DNA of 64,000 bases from Patescibacteria group bacterium UBA6201 (GCA_002422025.1 DISV01000005.1:203518-267517), one strand, 5' to 3'; positions 19,201 to 36,853 are shown, counted from the first letter of the stretch. Notes: generated by a model not told the origin, from the letters alone. Program-made: numbers and translations.

Positions 19201-20814
19201 TTATTTCCAGCTCCGATCCGCGTACTTCGCTACCAGCGCTTCGACTTTTTTTCGGTTTTCCACGTCGGTCTCTGACATACCGGCATTCTGCCCGTAAAGG
19301 GAGAAGCCTAGTATGCTACCCTTCTTCACTACAAGGATGTAGGCGATGAAGAGTGCCCAGAGAGTAAGTACAGCGTAGAAGAGGAAGGTTAGGAATGCTC
19401 CAGCCTCAAAACCAGTATATGGAACTTGAGTAAGAGCGATTACTAGAGCCTGATCGCGCTTTTCGTAGACAGCGATGTCATCAACATCGACATCCACCTT
19501 ACAAGTACGACTTCCGCCATCTACACCTTCAGCTTTCATTCTAAATTCAGTAGATTGGTTGATGACCACATCGATTTCACCGTCCAGGTACTTCTTACGC
19601 TTAGAAGAGCTGTAGTCATCAGTGTCGAAAATGGTGTTGCCACGATCGTCCTTGATTACAATCTCGTCCACGTTAGTGGTTTCCCAAGAAAGTGTTACTT
19701 TCTCACCACGCTTTACACGGTCTTTAGAGATATCGAGCTCACAGCGAGGAGTCTTCTCATCTTCCTCTTCCTCAATTTCCACACGCACAGTACAGGTATC
19801 AGAACCATTTGTACCAGTGACAGTAAGGGTAAAAGTAATATCATCGTCTATTTCCACGGTCTTTGATCCATCAGCTGATACGTTACCAATACCCTGGTCG
19901 ATACTAACAGAGGTTGCGTTTGTGGTGTCCCATGTAAGAGTGACATCATCACCCTCTTCAACTACGTCGTCAGACACACGCAGGTAGTTACAAATTGGCG
20001 CTTCTGCAGCACTTTTAGTGATAGTTACAGTACAAGTATCATTACCACCAGCACCGACCGCAGTGAGCGTAAAGGTGACAGTTGAATTAACAAATACATT
20101 TTTAGACCCATCAGCAGAAACGTTTCCTACTCCGTTATCAATTGATACTGAAGTAGCGTTAGTAGTTGTCCAAGTAAGGACTACGTTGCCACCATTGTAT
20201 GGCACGGTATTTCTATCGGCTGTGAATGAGTCACAGGTTGCAGCGGGTGTTTGAGGTGGAGGACTTACTGTTACAGACGCTGTACAGCTAGCATTACCAC
20301 CAGCACCAACCGCAGTTAGAGTAAAAGTTGTATTACTCGTTACTGAAACGTTACTCGATCCACTGGTACCAACTGAACCAATACTAGTGATACTTACTGA
20401 TGTAGCGTTACTGGTGCTCCACGATAGAGTCACAGTACCACCGCCATAAGGTAAGCTAGTAGGGCTTGCAGTCAGGTAGTTACAGGTCGCAGGTGTTGGA
20501 GGAGGAGTGTATGGAGGAGGAGTGTATACAGGAGTGTTGTTATTTCCCCCACTCTCAGTGGTGCTACCACCATTGTTATTCCCTCCCTCACAACAACCGC
20601 TATCTCCACCATAACTACCATCGCTGTTGTTTCCACCACCAGTACTACCACCACTACCACCTCCGTCAAAGGCAGCGGCCTTATCAGCTGAAGTACTCAA
20701 TGAATCAACTGAGCTACCAATTTGAGGTAGTTGCGGCAGAACCACGAACATCATCAACGACAACGTTACAATAGCTGAAGCTCCGTAGATTGATATTTTA
20801 ATACTATTGGTCAT
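19201..20814 (-). CDS. surface protein with N-terminal signal/anchor, G/S/N-rich linker, PPxYTPPP stretch and 4 tandem Cys-containing Ig-like repeats. The C-terminus has a VPYTG motif followed by a TM segment and a KK tail.
   Basis: Repeats CNYLTASP...TLSWSTSNATSVSI...TFTLTAVGAGGNASCT recur four times. C-terminus is LTQVPYTGFEAG+hydrophobic+KKGS. Confidence 0.7.
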   Translation of the reverse strand: MTNSIKISIYGASAIVTLSLMMFVVLPQLPQIGSSVDSLSTSADKAAAFDGGGSGGSTGGGNNSDGSYGGDSGCCEGGNNNGGSTTESGGNNNTPVYTPPPYTPPPTPATCNYLTASPTSLPYGGGTVTLSWSTSNATSVSITSIGSVGTSGSSNVSVTSNTTFTLTAVGAGGNASCTASVTVSPPPQTPAATCDSFTADRNTVPYNGGNVVLTWTTTNATSVSIDNGVGNVSADGSKNVFVNSTVTFTLTAVGAGGNDTCTVTITKSAAEAPICNYLRVSDDVVEEGDDVTLTWDTTNATSVSIDQGIGNVSADGSKTVEIDDDITFTLTVTGTNGSDTCTVRVEIEEEEDEKTPRCELDISKDRVKRGEKVTLSWETTNVDEIVIKDDRGNTIFDTDDYSSSKRKKYLDGEIDVVINQSTEFRMKAEGVDGGSRTCKVDVDVDDIAVYEKRDQALVIALTQVPYTGFEAGAFLTFLFYAVLTLWALFIAYILVVKKGSILGFSLYGQNAGMSETDVENRKKVEALVAKYADRSWK

Positions 20815-20955
20815 ATTTTTTGAATAAATATTTTATAAAGTTTTGTAACTACCGGATCATCCCGGATATTGAGGTTTAATCATTTAAGCTCCAATATCCA
20901 AGATGATTAGAAATGCTGTGGGGAAGACATAAATGTCTTCCCCACAGGTTCTGAA

Positions 20956-21246
20956 TCATCTGCAACCCCATTCCCTTTTGGATTGTGCGAGCGAGCGTTT
21001 GTCGACCGGGCCGAAGTATGTCGTGCATTGTGCCCAGTCCACAATCGTTTCGAGGCGGTATTCGCAACAGTCAGTCCTGCGCGTGCCCTTCATTTCGCCG
21101 TTCATGTACGAGGCCCTGCAACCGCCCATGTTTCGGTCGCTCTTCGCGCTCCAGGTCGCGCACTGCGACCGGGAAGCCGCTGTAGCGATAGTGGCGTTGC
21201 TGATGCTACCGAGAACGAGTAGGCAGAGTGCGAGTGTTTTGATCAT
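20956..21246 (-). CDS. small secreted Cys-rich protein (96 aa, signal peptide, 6 Cys in mature part)
   Basis: MIKTLALCLLVLGSISNATIATAAS signal. SD aggagaag 6 nt upstream. Confidence 0.55.
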   Translation of the reverse strand: MIKTLALCLLVLGSISNATIATAASRSQCATWSAKSDRNMGGCRASYMNGEMKGTRRTDCCEYRLETIVDWAQCTTYFGPVDKRSLAQSKREWGCR

Positions 21247-21267
21247 AATCTTCTCCTGTCTCCTGTT

Positions 21268-21675
21268 TCAGTACATCGTGTAGGTTTTTCCGGACACCGT
21301 AACTGGGGGTGTCCAGATGACGCGATTCACGCACGAGGCGAAAACCGCCACCTGTTCGCCAGGCCGCCTCGACATCGTTATGCAGCGCTTGGTGACGGTT
21401 GGAAGAGGGGTGCTCTTCCAGGTTCCTTTGACGATGACCGGCTCCCACCAGCGCGTGCGCTGGCCTTTGTAGTAGCCGACGTCGAGCTGGTCCCAGTAGC
21501 CGTGACATACGGTTACCTTAATTTTGTTGGGAGTATGGTCGGTACCCTTGTAGGTTCGACCGTCGGTCGAGCGATTGCACTCGATGTCATTTGTGCGACA
21601 GGCATATGCCTTGCTGCAACCTACTGACATATAGAGTGCCATCACTGCGATGATAGCAAGAAGAATAGAACGCAT
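21268..21675 (-). CDS. small secreted/lipo- Cys-rich protein (135 aa)
   Basis: MRSILLAIIAVMALYMSVGC signal with a possible lipobox. Perfect SD aggagg 4 nt upstream. 6 Cys. Confidence 0.55.
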   Translation of the reverse strand: MRSILLAIIAVMALYMSVGCSKAYACRTNDIECNRSTDGRTYKGTDHTPNKIKVTVCHGYWDQLDVGYYKGQRTRWWEPVIVKGTWKSTPLPTVTKRCITMSRRPGEQVAVFASCVNRVIWTPPVTVSGKTYTMY

Positions 21676-21801
21676 GGCGTCCTCCTAAGGTTGTTGGGTT
21701 GACTGATTTTTCGAAGAACGAAAAGAGCAGAGAGGGGTCTTGGTTAATATAACTCCTAACCCCAGATTCTCTACAGAATAGCATATTAGAAGTGAAATGT
21801 C

Positions 21802-21828
21802 AAGGCCGCTCCCTTTGGGAGCGGCCTT
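21802..21828. terminator. hairpin aaggccgctccctttgggagcggcctt
   Basis: 12-bp stem between the sortase stop and the Cys-rich gene promoter region. Confidence 0.6.
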
Positions 21829-21857
21829 TAATTAAGGAAAGTTTTAAAAGACTAGAT

Positions 21858-22529
21858 TTAAAGCGCTTTTTTTGAAACTAGGACCGCCTCTACGATAAAA
21901 CGGTCTTCCTTAGCGCCGAAAGTGTTACAAGTAGCCAAGGTTAAGCGCGCCCCGTTACTAGTGGTAGGGATTGATACACTGCTGGCCTTAGCTTGGTATA
22001 CCTTGTCTACACGGTAAGTATATTCAGTATCTCCTGACTTCAAAGTGATGGTATCTCCCCAGGTCATATTTTGAATACCATTAAAAGCCTGAAAGTTTTT
22101 GTTAAATACATTGTTTAGGTAGCTCGAATGACCAAGAATGAGCATATTGCCATTTTCGTCATTGAGGTCAGCTGAATCAGGGTGACGTACGACTCCCTTG
22201 AGCAAGGCAGCATCCAAATCAGGGATAGACCGTGATGTAGGGTTTAGGACGCTTACAGTGCGATTTAGACTGCCTAGAGTGATAGTTATTGGTCGCGGGT
22301 CACGAATATCCTCTAGTGCAGATGGAACCTCCTCAGTTTTCTCAGCAAAAGTAGATTCTTGATCTTCTACCGTTGTCTCTTCGTCAGTAGCAACCTCCTC
22401 AGATGGAGCCTCTGGCACGAAATCGATAAAATACAAAAAGCCGTAGCCAATCATCATTACAATAAAGAACACGCCCAGAAAAGCGCTGGCGCTAGGTAAG
22501 ATTTGGTTGAAAAAGTAAGAGAAATTCAT
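21858..22529 (-). CDS. sortase family transpeptidase
   Basis: N-terminal TM, the conserved His in LILGHS, the catalytic TLxTC as LTLATCNTFGAKEDRFIVEA. ATG at 22529 (the track start at 22532 is a TTG). Confidence 0.8.
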   Translation of the reverse strand: MNFSYFFNQILPSASAFLGVFFIVMMIGYGFLYFIDFVPEAPSEEVATDEETTVEDQESTFAEKTEEVPSALEDIRDPRPITITLGSLNRTVSVLNPTSRSIPDLDAALLKGVVRHPDSADLNDENGNMLILGHSSYLNNVFNKNFQAFNGIQNMTWGDTITLKSGDTEYTYRVDKVYQAKASSVSIPTTSNGARLTLATCNTFGAKEDRFIVEAVLVSKKAL

Positions 22530-22554
22530 CAAAATTGACTAATATTTGTCCGAA

Positions 22555-22583
22555 TATAATACACTAAAACACAATTTTGTCAA
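22555..22583 (-). promoter_or_regulatory. sigma70-like promoter TTGACA-N16-TATTAT for the sortase gene
   Basis: The minus strand reads TTGACAaaattgtgttttagtgTATTAT ~25 nt upstream of ATG. Confidence 0.45.
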
Positions 22584-22621: not shown

Positions 22622-22955
22622 GGGGGTTGACCCCCACACCAGTTTTGTTATTGAAGACTTGCTTTTATCCTACGCTTAAGCTGAGCTAGGGCGTTACCGT
22701 CCTTTTTTAAGGACCACTCCCTGTGTCTTGCGTCATTTTCTAGCAAAAAAGCTTCGTAGTACCGTAGAGTAAAGGGTTCCCTCCCTTTCGTAGCAGGACT
22801 CTGACCTTGATTATGTTCAGCAAGTCTTCGTCTCAAGTCAGTAGTTGAACCTAGGTATAGTTGATTATCCCTTTGACTTTTAAGGATATATACATAAAAC
22901 ATCATTATATTATGATCTGATTCGTGACTATAACAAAACTGGTGTGGGGGTTGAC
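22622..22955. mobile_element. GIY-YIG gene cassette bracketed by 26-bp inverted repeats (IR-L 22626-22651 GTTGACCCCCACACCAGTTTTGTTAT; IR-R 22930-22955 ATAACAAAACTGGTGTGGGGGTTGAC)
   Basis: The IRs match 25/26. IR-L overlaps the stop codon. IR-R supplies an outward TTGACA -35 for the 23010 gene and an inward TTGTTA -35 for the GIY-YIG gene. Confidence 0.55.
22648..22905 (-). CDS. GIY-YIG nuclease domain protein (UPF0213/YhbQ-like, 85 aa)
   Basis: FYVYILKSQRDNQLYLGSTTDLRRRLAEHNQG is a GIY-YIG motif. Confidence 0.8.
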   Translation of the reverse strand: MMFYVYILKSQRDNQLYLGSTTDLRRRLAEHNQGQSPATKGREPFTLRYYEAFLLENDARHREWSLKKDGNALAQLKRRIKASLQ

Positions 22956-23009: not shown

Positions 23010-23759
23010 ATGAGCGATACCAATAATACAGAAAGGAACGAACAGATGGTAAGGATTATGGCCGTCGTTGGCTTTGTTGTGTTGATTTGTCTCTTGGCAT
23101 GGCTTGCTGTACAGGTTGTGCGCTTCGTACCAGTAGCCTTCTCTTCCCTGGCGGACATATTTGAACAGAATCAGCGTGATTACGCAGAGAATGTTAATGA
23201 GAATGGTGGCGAGGACACCATTGTTGTAGAAAATACTGAAACTAACCAAGACTCAGAAGTTGAGGATGAAGTGGTAGTTGAGGGAGACAACACAGTAGCC
23301 ACTTCTAGTACTCCAGTTGTTGTTGCCACAACTACTCCGGTAGCAACAACTCCTACACCGATTCAATATAAAACTGTGACCACATATAAGAAGCCGGTTT
23401 CAGACCCTAACGGTAAAACTGACCTCGCTATGACTTTCACTGGTGTTGGTAGTCTAAATTCTAATCAGCACTTTGTGCCAGGTAGCCTGCCAGACAGGGG
23501 TCAGGGTGCATTGCAGTTTGTGGTTAAGAACGTAGGTACTAAGACATCTATTGACTGGAGCTTCAAGCTCGATTTGCCAAATGGTGCCACAATGACTTCA
23601 AGTGTTCAGAAGCCACTCTTGCCAAGCGAGAGTTCAACACTGACTGTCACCTTTGAGATGAATAATGACGATTGGCATGATATCAATGGAACAGTAGTTG
23701 GGGGCGGAGACATAAATCTTGCCAACAATAGCTTTGTTGCAAAGGTTGCCAAACGATAA
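23010..23759 (+). CDS. membrane-anchored hypothetical surface protein (N-terminal TM, acidic and Thr-rich linker, beta-rich C-terminal domain)
   Basis: Hydrophobic segment IMAVVGFVVLICLLAWLAV. Promoter TTGACA-N16-TATCAT at 22951-22978. Confidence 0.55.
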   Translation: MSDTNNTERNEQMVRIMAVVGFVVLICLLAWLAVQVVRFVPVAFSSLADIFEQNQRDYAENVNENGGEDTIVVENTETNQDSEVEDEVVVEGDNTVATSSTPVVVATTTPVATTPTPIQYKTVTTYKKPVSDPNGKTDLAMTFTGVGSLNSNQHFVPGSLPDRGQGALQFVVKNVGTKTSIDWSFKLDLPNGATMTSSVQKPLLPSESSTLTVTFEMNNDDWHDINGTVVGGGDINLANNSFVAKVAKR

Positions 23760-35408: not shown

Positions 35409-36812
35409 CTACCCAGCATCAAGTGTGCGAATCTCGGCCTCCAAACGAGCCTTCTTTTGCATTACCTGGTCCCCGTAAAAGTGGTTTCTTGGATTGTTAA
35501 TACCATTCCATCCAGAATAGTAACGTATTGCTGCTGTCCATTCAGCATCATAGCCACCGGCTGCAGCACCATTGTCCCTCATTAAGAGTGAAGTCGCCAA
35601 GAAGGCATCTTGGTTTCTAAATGGATTCGATGGGGCGTCAATTCCTAGTAGTTGTCGAATGGAGTCTTGAGATGAGTTGTAAACATAAACATCATTTCCA
35701 GTATTAACATACCCTCCGTAGAGTGCCCAAGTGGACGGGATGAACTGAGAAGGTCCCATTGCTCCACCCCAACCGTATGAAAAAGGACAGGATACTTTTT
35801 GAGTATTAATATCAAACCCTAAAACATCAGCCATAACGGTGAAGACTGGAACACTACCAGGACCCATGGCTGTTCGACCATTGGCAATCTGGTTATAGGT
35901 ACATTGACCAATATTGGAGCCAAATTCAGATTCTTGCTCCAATATAGCTAAAATAAATGATGGAGAAACGCCAGTTTTGGCGCCTGCGAACTTTGCTAAT
36001 TGGACTGCCTCAGTGAAAGGGATGCGTCCACCGCCACCGGCAAGATCGAATAAAGCCGCTCTAAGCTGGGAGGCAGTTCTTTGTGATTGTGCCAGGTGCT
36101 CTTGATAAACCGCCTCCTGCCCCTTTGTTACTTCTAGTATCGTGCTCTTCTCTGCCTCTTTTTGTTCTATTGTAGCTTTCTGCGCCTCTTGTAACTGTCT
36201 TTGGCGGGCCTCTTCTAGTTGTTTCTCCTCCAAAGCTGTCATTTGATCTTCCGTGTCTCGTTTTATTTCGGCCAACACTTGTACGGATTCGCGGAGTGAA
36301 TTGTTTATAGTACGGTAGTCCTCAAAGTCAGCGAAAAACTCAGAAAAATTGCGATTAGCAAGCATTAATTCAGCGAGGGAGTTGTCATCAATTTCTTGGG
36401 TTTTTCTGATTAAGGAACTGATGGACTGCTTTTGCTTTTCGGAACGCTCATCCAGTACGGAGACTACAGCCACTTTGTCACCAATTTGGTCATTTAGTTG
36501 GCGGATAGCGAGAGACCTAGCCTGAATACCGAGTTGTGATTTCTTTATTTCTGCTTCAAGGAGACCGACGTCACGCTCCAATGACTGTCTCTCGGCCTGT
36601 TTTAGCTCCACTAATCTTTGTTGCGCGAGAATTTGTTGATCTATTTGACTGAGCAAGGCCTTACAAGCAGTCTTGTCTGACTCGCTAGCAGTAGCACCAC
36701 TTATTTGTGAACAGTATTCCACTGACACGGCTGACAACGCGTTCTCGGGTGCGCCAAAAGTCACCAGAAAACAAAATACTAAAAACAGAATTCCCTTCTT
36801 CATTCCGTACAT
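35409..36812 (-). CDS. secreted coiled-coil protein with C-terminal lytic transglycosylase-like (SLT/lysozyme-fold) domain
   Basis: Signal peptide, ~200 aa coiled coil, ILEQESEFG ... GAMGPSQFIPSTW resembling the SLT ES...GLMQxMPxT motifs. Confidence 0.5.
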   Translation of the reverse strand: MYGMKKGILFLVFCFLVTFGAPENALSAVSVEYCSQISGATASESDKTACKALLSQIDQQILAQQRLVELKQAERQSLERDVGLLEAEIKKSQLGIQARSLAIRQLNDQIGDKVAVVSVLDERSEKQKQSISSLIRKTQEIDDNSLAELMLANRNFSEFFADFEDYRTINNSLRESVQVLAEIKRDTEDQMTALEEKQLEEARQRQLQEAQKATIEQKEAEKSTILEVTKGQEAVYQEHLAQSQRTASQLRAALFDLAGGGGRIPFTEAVQLAKFAGAKTGVSPSFILAILEQESEFGSNIGQCTYNQIANGRTAMGPGSVPVFTVMADVLGFDINTQKVSCPFSYGWGGAMGPSQFIPSTWALYGGYVNTGNDVYVYNSSQDSIRQLLGIDAPSNPFRNQDAFLATSLLMRDNGAAAGGYDAEWTAAIRYYSGWNGINNPRNHFYGDQVMQKKARLEAEIRTLDAG

Positions 36813-36820
36813 TATAACAA

Positions 36821-36853
36821 CAAAGCGCGGGCACTAAAAGTGTCCGCGCTTTG
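36821..36853 (-). terminator. hairpin caaagcgcgggcac-taaaa-gtgtccgcgctttg
   Basis: Downstream of rplY on the minus strand with a T-rich tail. Confidence 0.55.

What the first reader, a model, noticed from the sequence alone, without database searches (positions are those of the whole stretch)
19201..22532. Sortase with an adjacent Ig-repeat surface protein carrying a non-canonical VPYTG sorting-like signal
The 224-aa protein at 21858-22529 has the sortase His (LILGHS) and TLxTC (LTLATCNTFG) motifs. The convergently arranged 537-aa protein has a signal/anchor, a G/S/N-rich spacer, PPxYTPPP, four ~85-aa Cys-containing Ig-like repeats and a C-terminus LTQVPYTGFEAG followed by a hydrophobic segment and a KK tail. 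That arrangement is the tripartite layout of a cell-wall sorting signal, but with VPYTG instead of LPxTG and an unusually long 41-aa cytoplasmic tail. This could define the substrate motif of this lineage's sortase.
Basis: inference. Interest (0 to 1): 0.55.

Follow-up and report, generated by a model that had tools for sequence, protein, structure and literature searches.

The report
Dedicated sortase and its PYTG-motif partner
A sortase gene and, just downstream on the same strand, a surface protein carrying an invariant V-P-Y-T-G motif in front of its membrane helix form a gene pair that is conserved across hundreds of ultra-small Parcubacteria/Paceibacteria genomes. The protein is therefore very probably this lineage's single sortase substrate, but no experiment shows it and no database describes it.

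Summary
The described sequence features are real, but the two genes lie in tandem on the minus strand, not convergently. The 223-aa protein is a true sortase: Pfam 64 bits, an invariant His-Cys-Arg triad and a sortase fold. It reaches no NCBIfam class cutoff. The 537-aa protein has a signal sequence, four Cys-paired repeats, VPYTG, a membrane helix, KK and a 41-aa tail.

Comparative data support the substrate idea and change the picture.
- A 51-residue module ([VIL]PYTG-F[ED]AGP plus helix) occurs in 1027 protein clusters. P, T and G are the only invariant residues next to the membrane.
- In 120 species genomes, almost all titled as Patescibacteria groups, the module was found once per assembly.
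- A catalytically intact sortase lies upstream on the same strand in 52 of 57 loci with at least 1.5 kb of upstream sequence, and in 25 of 26 with at least 3.5 kb.
- Rare tandem paralogs carry LPDTG or VPETG.
- No canonical LPxTG C-terminal signal was seen in about 1 Mb of related DNA.
- Most family members have 200-300 cytoplasmic residues after the helix. The module is usually internal, so the 41-aa tail is short for the family, not long.

Best reading: a dedicated sortase-substrate cassette, which also includes a divergent CARDB-like gene. Cleavage and the acceptor are inferred.

The parts
21858..22529 (-). Sortase gene (223 aa). It has an N-terminal membrane anchor (aa 6-39), ending in the conserved juxtamembrane motif IDFVPE. 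A disordered acidic linker follows, then the catalytic domain (aa ~78-223). Catalytic residues: His134 (22128-22130), Cys201 (21927-21929), Arg210 (21900-21902).
   Evidence: Pfam Sortase 64.1 bits against a cutoff of 26.6. No NCBIfam class cutoff is reached. H134, C201 and R210 are invariant in 35 homologs and in 57-58 of 58 linked sortases. The AF2 model has pLDDT 77 and all top Foldseek hits are sortases. Hydropathy is and IDFVPE conservation.
22556..22583 (-). Promoter-like site upstream of the sortase gene (TTGACA-16-TATTAT, 11 of 12).
   Evidence: Consensus scan only.
21804..21826 (-). GC-rich hairpin (GGCCGCTCCC-AAA-GGGAGCGGCC) 32 nt after the sortase stop codon. A promoter-like site (21775-21803) follows directly.
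   Evidence: Read from the sequence. Function is inferred.
21268..21675 (-). Small secreted Cys-rich ORF (135 aa) between the sortase gene and the PYTG gene. It is a variable filler gene of the cassette.
   Evidence: It has a signal-like N-terminus and an AGGAGG ribosome-binding site. Homologs sit at the same position in 6 related loci. No family hit.
20956..21246 (-). Second small secreted Cys-rich ORF (96 aa), followed by a terminator-like hairpin at 20916-20947.
   Evidence: No homolog was found in the related loci, so whether it codes for protein is uncertain.
19201..20814 (-). PYTG-module surface protein (537 aa), the putative dedicated sortase substrate.
   Evidence: ORF. It is 100% identical to P0122, and 113 of 120 homologs keep the module. 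The module HMM scores 83 bits and this is the only hit in the window.
20716..20814 (-). N-terminal signal or anchor segment (aa 1-33).
   Evidence: Hydropathy. The relative in L006 has a classical signal peptide ending VFA-QY. Cleavage was not tested.
19459..20493 (-). Four tandem repeats of about 85-90 aa, each with one Cys pair. They are probably beta-sandwich (Ig-like) domains. Copy number varies among orthologs: five repeats in L002.
   Evidence: Repeat alignment. Filamin hit below cutoff. Ig-type Pfam hits occur in homologs. L002 ortholog.
19411..19425 (-). VPYTG pentapeptide (aa 464-468), the putative sortase cleavage site between T and G. It is embedded in the conserved LTQ-VPYTG-FEAG.
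   Evidence: P, T and G are invariant across 35 diverse modules. Motif counts: VPYTG 105, IPYTG 5, LPYTG 2, VPHTG 1; and VPYTG 104, LPYTG 7, IPYTG 5, VPHTG 4, TPYTG 2, MPYTG 1.
19327..19395 (-). Transmembrane helix (aa 474-496) with the conserved pattern FY.LL.LWAL..AY.LV.
   Evidence: Hydropathy and near-invariant columns.
19204..19326 (-). Cytoplasmic tail of 41 aa (KK-GSILGFSLYG...RKKVEALVAKY...). Only the first ~10 residues resemble the start of the long tails of other family members.
   Evidence: The similarity is weak, at 4.7 bits.
19039..19084 (-). Strong terminator-like hairpin (20 pairs plus a T-run) after the PYTG gene.
23010..23759 (+). Third conserved cassette gene (249 aa), transcribed divergently from the sortase. 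It has an N-terminal membrane helix, an acidic/Thr-rich linker and a CARDB-like beta-sandwich domain.
   Evidence: Homologs lie within 1.5 kb upstream of the sortase in 33 of 37 loci, all 33 divergent. Pfam CARDB matches 15 of 17 homologs, best E 4.7e-6; the window copy scores 17 bits, below cutoff.

Best explanation
This is a dedicated sortase-substrate cassette that is conserved across Paceibacteria (Parcubacteria/Kaiserbacteria-type CPR bacteria).

Proposed mechanism:
- The sortase is held in the membrane by its N-terminal helix, with its His134/Cys201/Arg210 active site outside the cell.
- The Ig-repeat protein is exported by its N-terminal signal and retained by its C-proximal helix. This places VPYTG five residues above the outer membrane face.
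- The sortase recognises [VIL]-P-Y-T-G, cleaves between T and G, and forms a thioacyl intermediate.
- It then transfers the repeat-bearing ectodomain to an amine in the envelope, most likely the peptidoglycan precursor or stem peptide.
- The helix plus cytoplasmic tail stays in the membrane. That tail is 41 aa here and 200-300 aa with two folded domains in most relatives.

Shown: enzyme identity and an intact active site, the motif and its topology-compatible position, extreme conservation of P/T/G, and gene linkage.

Inferred: that the enzyme acts on this motif, where it cuts, and what the acceptor is.
For: 1. The enzyme is a real, apparently active sortase. Pfam scores 64 bits, the fold search returns only sortases, and the triad is invariant.
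2. The motif keeps exactly the residues that define sortase signals. In an alignment of 35 diverse modules, the only invariant residues next to the membrane are P14, T16 and G17. The first position is V, I or L, with rare T or M.
3. Layout: the motif is followed by 5 residues, a hydrophobic helix and basic residues. Seven of 123 representatives and several genome loci end in a canonical short tail such as KKKVS.
4. Linkage: a sortase lies upstream on the same strand in 52 of 57 loci with at least 1.5 kb upstream, and in 25 of 26 with at least 3.5 kb. The gap is under 300 bp in 33 of 60. The linkage holds for short-tail and long-tail members alike.
5. Each of 120 pattern matches came from a different assembly, including two records titled complete genome or chromosome.
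6. Three loci carry a tandem paralog downstream: LPDTG, VPETG, or VPYTG with an RRRK tail. In the LPDTG and VPETG copies the surrounding sequence has diverged but [LV]PxTG plus a helix is kept.
7. No canonical LPxTG C-terminal signal was found in the window or in about 1.02 Mb of related loci.
8. No other candidate processing enzyme lies in the cassette.
Against: - There is no biochemical or proteomic evidence.
- Most family members (81 of 123) have at least 200 conserved cytoplasmic residues after the helix. This is not known for sortase substrates and fits a stable bitopic membrane protein.
- The helix itself is conserved in sequence. That is not needed for a mere sorting signal.
- Neither TIGR01167 nor Pfam Gram_pos_anchor matches.
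- In the window the two genes appear to be separate transcription units.
- The linkage sits inside a broadly syntenic housekeeping block (gyrB ... thrS-dnaE), so some of it may reflect general synteny.
'One per genome' and motif invariance among those loci are therefore partly by construction.
- Whole genomes could not be searched for other substrates.
Confidence: 0.62

Rival explanations
1. The PYTG protein is a stable, uncleaved single-pass membrane protein: a receptor, adhesin or envelope tether. PYTG-FEAGP plus the conserved helix would be a structural or oligomerisation element. The neighbouring sortase would act on other proteins, or bind the motif without cutting.
For: - Two well-folded, conserved cytoplasmic domains follow the helix in most members.
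- The helix sequence is conserved.
- No sorting-signal HMM matches.
Against: - It does not explain why exactly P, T and G are the invariant residues.
- It does not explain why paralogs retain [LV]PxTG while the rest diverges.
- It does not explain why an active sortase is adjacent in about 90-96% of loci, including lineages that have lost the cytoplasmic domains.
- No alternative substrate was seen in about 1 Mb.
Confidence: 0.2
2. The sortase does cut at PYT|G but joins the ectodomain to a protein amine rather than to peptidoglycan. It would either polymerise the Ig-repeat protein into a pilus-like fibre, as class C sortases do, or couple it to the neighbouring CARDB-domain membrane protein.
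For: - Tandem Ig-like repeats resemble pilin architecture.
- A third envelope protein is conserved in the cassette.
- Occasional tandem paralogs with their own [LV]PxTG signals recall major and minor pilin sets.
Against: - No pilin-type YPK motif is present (sequence read).
- There is only one sortase in the 64-kb window, and normally one substrate gene per locus.
- The class C model scores only 27 bits against a cutoff of 160.
Confidence: 0.13
3. The resemblance to a sorting signal is coincidental, and the adjacency reflects only conserved housekeeping synteny.
For: The cassette always sits between gyrB and thrS/dnaE.
Against: - The module recurs in 1027 clusters with invariant P/T/G.
- Gaps are often under 300 bp on the same strand.
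- Other genes at that position (small ORFs, GIY-YIG) come and go while the sortase and the PYTG gene stay.
Confidence: 0.03

Closest known systems
Class A/D/E sortases with LPXTG-type cell-wall sorting signals (e.g. S. aureus SrtA, B. anthracis SrtD, Streptomyces SrtE)
   Same: - Same fold and the same His-Cys-Arg triad.
- N-terminal membrane anchor.
- Substrate motif with P at position 2, T at 4 and G at 5, followed by a hydrophobic helix and basic residues.
- The best sequence and fold matches are SrtD, SrtA and SrtE.
   Different: - It reaches no class cutoff: best is 40 bits against 140.
- The X position is fixed as Tyr and the motif extends to F[ED]AGP.
- There is apparently one substrate, encoded next door.
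- The substrate usually carries a large cytoplasmic domain, and the signal is not matched by TIGR01167 or PF00746.
Proteobacterial class GN ('marine') sortase with its single adjacent target protein (NCBIfam TIGR03784; pairing recalled from the NCBIfam/TIGRFAMs descriptions, not tested here)
   Same: One sortase and one dedicated target encoded side by side, in a lineage outside the classical Gram-positives.
   Different: - The sortase here scores only 23.9 bits against a cutoff of 158 on that model.
- The target architecture and the motif context are different.
Archaeosortase A with the PGF-CTERM S-layer glycoprotein (own knowledge)
   Same: A motif, helix and basic tail on the main envelope protein, processed by a dedicated enzyme. 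It is a lineage-wide, near single-substrate system.
   Different: The enzyme family is unrelated (a polytopic membrane protein) and the outcome is lipid attachment. No archaeosortase or exosortase-type signal or enzyme was detected here.
C-peptide signalling after sortase A cleavage in Streptococcus gordonii (cited in PMC11502775)
   Same: The helix and tail left in the membrane after sortase cleavage can have a function of their own.
   Different: There the remnant is a short peptide sensed by a histidine kinase. Here, in most relatives, the remnant would be a 250-300 aa two-domain cytoplasmic protein. The window protein keeps only 41 aa.

Membership tests
Sortase (Pfam PF04203, peptidase family C60) | Match to the sortase domain model above the curated cutoff | tested here: met
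   64.1 bits against 26.6, aa 88-219.
Sortase (Pfam PF04203, peptidase family C60) | Catalytic His, Cys (TLxTC) and Arg | tested here: met
   His134 (LILGHS), Cys201 (LTLATC) and Arg210. They are invariant in 35 homologs and in 57-58 of 58 linked sortases.
Sortase (Pfam PF04203, peptidase family C60) | Eight-stranded beta-barrel sortase fold | tested here: met
   The AF2 catalytic domain has pLDDT mostly 85-93. The top 50 Foldseek PDB hits are all sortases, with E down to 1.8e-10 and target TM 0.6-0.8.
Sortase (Pfam PF04203, peptidase family C60) | Transpeptidase activity on a sorting motif | not testable with these tools
   Needs an enzyme assay.
Sortase classes A-F and GN (NCBIfam class models) | Score above the class-specific cutoff | tested here: not met
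   Scores against cutoffs: LPxTATN-specific SrtD model 40/140, class E 36/160, class D 33.5/165, class C 27/160, GN 24/158. No class A, B or F model appears at E<=0.1. Structure matches A, D and E about equally.
LPXTG-type cell-wall sorting signal (TIGR01167 / PF00746) | Pentapeptide LPXTG | tested here: inconclusive
   The motif is VPYTG: P, T and G are kept, and L is replaced by V (I, L, T or M in relatives). The tandem paralog in L063 has LPDTG.
LPXTG-type cell-wall sorting signal (TIGR01167 / PF00746) | Hydrophobic segment directly after the motif, then basic residues | tested here: met
   Five residues, then a helix at aa 474-496, then KK.
LPXTG-type cell-wall sorting signal (TIGR01167 / PF00746) | Signal lies at the extreme C-terminus with only a short charged tail | tested here: not met
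   The tail is 41 aa here. It is at least 200 aa in 81 of 123 family representatives, and only 7 of 123 have fewer than 15 residues.
LPXTG-type cell-wall sorting signal (TIGR01167 / PF00746) | Match to the curated signal models | tested here: not met
   No hit to PF00746 or TIGR01167 at E<=0.1.
LPXTG-type cell-wall sorting signal (TIGR01167 / PF00746) | N-terminal secretion signal | tested here: inconclusive
   A hydrophobic N-terminal segment is present at aa 5-33. No predictor of the cleavage site was available. The relative in L006 has a classical signal peptide.
LPXTG-type cell-wall sorting signal (TIGR01167 / PF00746) | Cleavage between T and G and linkage to peptidoglycan | not testable with these tools
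   Needs mass spectrometry or an enzyme assay. An SLT-type murein hydrolase ORF in the window suggests only that murein exists.
Dedicated sortase-target gene pair | Enzyme and target encoded next to each other across the lineage, about one target per genome | tested here: met
   52 of 57 and 25 of 26 loci have the sortase upstream on the same strand. 120 matches came from 120 assemblies.

The most novel reading that the evidence does not exclude
The cassette may build the main outer-surface structure of these ultra-small bacteria, an S-layer-like coat or a host-attachment fibre, by sortase transfer of the Ig-repeat ectodomain. In the ancestral long-tailed form, the cut would also split a membrane-spanning protein. 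That would leave a membrane-tethered cytoplasmic module with a clamp-loader-like lid-plus-collar fold. Surface assembly or host contact would then be physically coupled to a cytoplasmic function, possibly DNA-related. Nothing like this is known for sortase substrates.
Probability: 0.15. Interest if true: 0.8.

Novelty: new variant of a known kind. Interest (0 to 1): 0.6.

Why it matters
Sortases are known to be common in CPR bacteria (PMC6744442). What they act on has not been described. No paper in the searched library links a PYTG motif to a sortase, and no Pfam or NCBIfam model covers the module.

A near-universal, single-copy enzyme-substrate cassette in Paceibacteria would give three things:
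- a concrete, testable handle on how these uncultured, probably host-dependent cells build their surface;
- a new sortase clade with an unusual specificity (Tyr at X, an extended motif);
- the first sortase substrate family with a large cytoplasmic domain.

The motif would also allow better annotation of roughly a thousand 'hypothetical protein' clusters.

Tried and rejected
- A word-index search with the C-terminal 95 aa returned only one fragment. This was a limit of the index, not of the family. It was replaced by a full-length search and an exhaustive profile search.
- Exact look-ups of the window's own two proteins found no contig on record. The source genome could therefore not be extended beyond the 64 kb, and no whole-genome census of [LV]PxTG signals was possible.
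- The afdb50 library was unavailable.
- A regex test of catalytic motifs in linked sortases was too strict, giving 35 of 58. It was replaced by an HMM-column check, giving 57-58 of 58.
- Sequence searches against PDB gave nothing significant for the cytoplasmic tail, the CARDB-like domain or the repeats.
- Homology of the window's 41-aa tail to the long tails could be supported only for the first ~10 residues, at 4.7 bits. 'Truncated remnant' therefore remains a suggestion.
- PEP-CTERM, PGF-CTERM, GlyGly-CTERM and similar signals were considered and dropped. No NCBIfam hit was found, and no exosortase, archaeosortase or rhombosortase lies in the cassette (gene tables).
- Assignment to a sortase class was rejected.
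- The convergent arrangement was rejected.
- The correlation between sortase score and module score (r=0.83) is not used as evidence of co-evolution, because shared phylogeny explains it.
Full report
**What is at the coordinates**

Both ORFs are on the minus strand.

The sortase gene runs 22529 to 21858. It is 223 aa from the ATG and 100% identical to database protein P0001. A TTG one codon upstream would give 224 aa. It carries LILGHS (His134), LTLATC (Cys201) and Arg210, and an N-terminal hydrophobic helix at aa 6-39.

The 537-aa gene runs 20814 to 19201 and is identical to P0122. Its parts, in order:
- an N-terminal hydrophobic segment (aa 5-33);
- a G/S/N-rich spacer with a CC pair;
- YTPPPYTPPP;
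- four repeats of 85-90 aa, each with a Cys pair, which align well with one another;
- ALTQ-VPYTG-FEAGA (VPYTG at aa 464-468);
- a helix at aa 474-496;
- KK and 39 further residues.

The statement that the genes are convergent is not: they are in tandem with the sortase upstream. The 1043 bp between them hold two small secreted Cys-rich ORFs, a GC-rich hairpin just after the sortase gene, and a terminator-like hairpin before the 537-aa gene. In this genome they look like separate transcription units.

**The enzyme**

- Pfam Sortase scores 64.1 bits against a cutoff of 26.6.
- No NCBIfam class model comes near its cutoff. The best is the LPxTATN-specific SrtD model at 40 bits against 140, then class E at 36 against 160.
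- A profile of 35 homologs finds B. anthracis SrtD and SrtA and C. perfringens SrtD as the nearest solved relatives, with E 5e-9 to 3e-8.
- An AlphaFold model has mean pLDDT 77, with the catalytic domain mostly 85-93. It matches only sortases in the PDB, and classes A, E and D are about equally good.
- His134, Cys201 and Arg210 are invariant among 35 homologs.

It is a genuine, apparently active sortase of an unclassified clade. Sources that name the homologs call them Kaiserbacteria, Nomurabacteria or Paceibacterota. That CPR bacteria often encode a sortase family is already published (PMC6744442).

**The motif is a conserved module, and usually not C-terminal**

Of 120 full-length homologs, 113 have [VIL]P[YH]TG followed by a helix: VPYTG 105, IPYTG 5, LPYTG 2, VPHTG 1.

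In an alignment of 35 diverse 51-residue modules, the only invariant positions near the membrane are the P, T and G of the pentapeptide. Y, F, A, G and several helix residues are conserved at 90% or more.

An exhaustive profile search of 1.84 billion representative proteins found 1027 proteins at E<=1e-3 and 430 at E<=1e-10.

Among the 123 new top hits, the length of sequence after the helix is:

| Residues after the helix | Proteins |
|---|---|
| 200 or more | 81 |
| 60-200 | 29 |
| 15-60 | 6 |
| fewer than 15 | 7 |

The long tails contain a conserved P.NLPTG..VGY stretch and two conserved domains. These fold confidently in AlphaFold and have no Pfam, NCBIfam or PDB sequence match.

So the window's '41-aa unusually long tail' is a short version for this family. 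Only its first ten residues (GSILGFSLYG) resemble the start of the long tails, and only weakly. A minority of members end in KKKVS-type tails, which is the textbook sorting-signal layout.

**Linkage to the sortase**

Three close and more distant relatives show the same order: gyrB, a divergent membrane protein, sortase, zero to two small ORFs, the PYTG protein, thrS, dnaE.

All came from different assemblies, and most are titled with Patescibacteria-group names. About ten say only 'bacterium', and five carry other names. Of those five, one (L015, a Proteobacteria-titled record) did not contain the protein module.

Searching those loci with a sortase HMM:

| Upstream sequence available | Loci | Sortase upstream, same strand |
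|---|---|---|
| at least 1.5 kb | 57 | 52 |
| at least 3.5 kb | 26 | 25 |

- In 33 of 60 linked pairs the gap is under 300 bp.
- His, Cys and Arg are present in 57, 58 and 58 of 58 of these sortases.
- The linkage holds for long-tail and short-tail members alike.
- A third gene is divergently adjacent to the sortase in 33 of 37 loci. It is homologous to window 23010-23759: an N-terminal helix plus a CARDB-like domain.

Three loci have a second, tandem paralog downstream of the main gene. Their motifs are LPDTG, VPETG and VPYTG, the last with an RRRK tail. In the LPDTG and VPETG copies the surrounding sequence has diverged while [LV]PxTG plus a helix is retained. That points to the sortase-type core as the selected feature.

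No canonical LPxTG C-terminal signal appears in the window or in 1.02 Mb of window plus loci. The window has one sortase and one module.

**Interpretation**

The simplest account is a dedicated sortase-substrate cassette.
- The sortase sits in the membrane with its catalytic domain outside. The conserved IDFVPE motif lies at the outer end of its anchor.
- The substrate's [VIL]PYTG sits five residues above its own helix.
- The enzyme would cut after Thr467 and transfer the repeat ectodomain to an envelope amine.
- Peptidoglycan is the default acceptor by analogy with classes A, D and E. An SLT-type murein hydrolase ORF in the window is consistent with a murein wall. The acceptor remains an inference.
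- A protein acceptor is a live alternative: polymerisation, or coupling to the CARDB protein.

The main argument against simple 'cell-wall sorting' is the large conserved cytoplasmic region and the conserved helix in most relatives. These fit a stable bitopic protein. The two views are compatible if the remnant has a function of its own, as shown for short C-peptides in streptococci (PMC11502775).

Caveats:
- The cassette lies inside a syntenic housekeeping block.
- Whole genomes could not be searched.
- Nothing here shows cleavage.

**Comparison with known systems and novelty**

It works like an LPXTG system but is not a member of any curated sortase class. Its signal fails the curated sorting-signal models and the 'extreme C-terminus' criterion.

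The one-enzyme, one-neighbouring-target logic resembles the proteobacterial class GN sortase system and, more loosely, archaeosortase A with the S-layer glycoprotein. Both comparisons come from my own knowledge of those families.

No paper in the searchable library connects a PYTG motif with a sortase, and searches on sortases in Parcubacteria or Patescibacteria turned up no description of their substrates.

I rate it a new variant of a known kind, of moderate to good interest. The cassette is lineage-wide, undescribed and directly testable.

Noticed in passing
[not shown]
   Followed up: partly
window 23010-23759 (+): A 249-aa membrane-anchored protein with an acidic/Thr-rich linker and a CARDB-like domain. 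It is divergently adjacent to the sortase in 33 of 37 related loci, so it is a third conserved member of the cassette. Its role is unknown.
   Followed up: partly
L063 5257-6690, L024 4512-6299, L120 2859-3944: Tandem paralogs directly downstream of the main PYTG gene carry LPDTG, VPETG or VPYTG, each followed by a helix. Some genomes therefore have two putative substrates.
   Followed up: partly
window 22648-22905 (-): An 85-aa stand-alone GIY-YIG nuclease-domain ORF (Pfam 60 bits) lies between the sortase and the CARDB gene. It is absent at this position in the close relatives L001-L003, so it looks like a small mobile or selfish insertion.
   Followed up: no
window 20956-21675 (-): Two small secreted Cys-rich ORFs (135 and 96 aa) lie in a stretch with higher G+C (0.48 against about 0.43). 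The 135-aa one has homologs at the same position in 6 loci. Other relatives carry unrelated small or 186-323-aa secreted proteins there, so the slot between sortase and substrate is variable.
   Followed up: partly
window 22413-22430 (-), sortase aa ~34-39: The outer end of the sortase membrane anchor carries a nearly invariant [IV]DF[VIL]PE motif across all linked sortases, although the helix before it is variable. This is unusual for a simple anchor. It may be a docking element for the substrate's juxtamembrane FEAGP.
   Followed up: no
window 20590-20595 (-), aa 74-75 of the 537-aa protein: A Cys-Cys pair sits inside the G/S/N-rich spacer (GDSGCCEGG). It is also present in the ortholog of L002 (EGGCCGGGG), so this odd feature is conserved in an otherwise low-complexity linker.
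   Followed up: no
L035, L089, L098 (genome contigs records): Records titled Patiriisocius sp., Acidimicrobiales and Azotimanducaceae carry a typical PYTG protein (the Patiriisocius record also the sortase). These contigs are probably mis-binned Patescibacteria DNA. About 43 records titled 'uncultured Candidatus Saccharibacteria' carry cassettes indistinguishable from Kaiserbacteria and Paceibacterota ones, so those titles are doubtful too.
   Followed up: no
window 35412-36833 (-): A 474-aa ORF with an SLT-type lytic transglycosylase domain (31 bits against a cutoff of 24). It indicates murein turnover in this organism.
   Followed up: no
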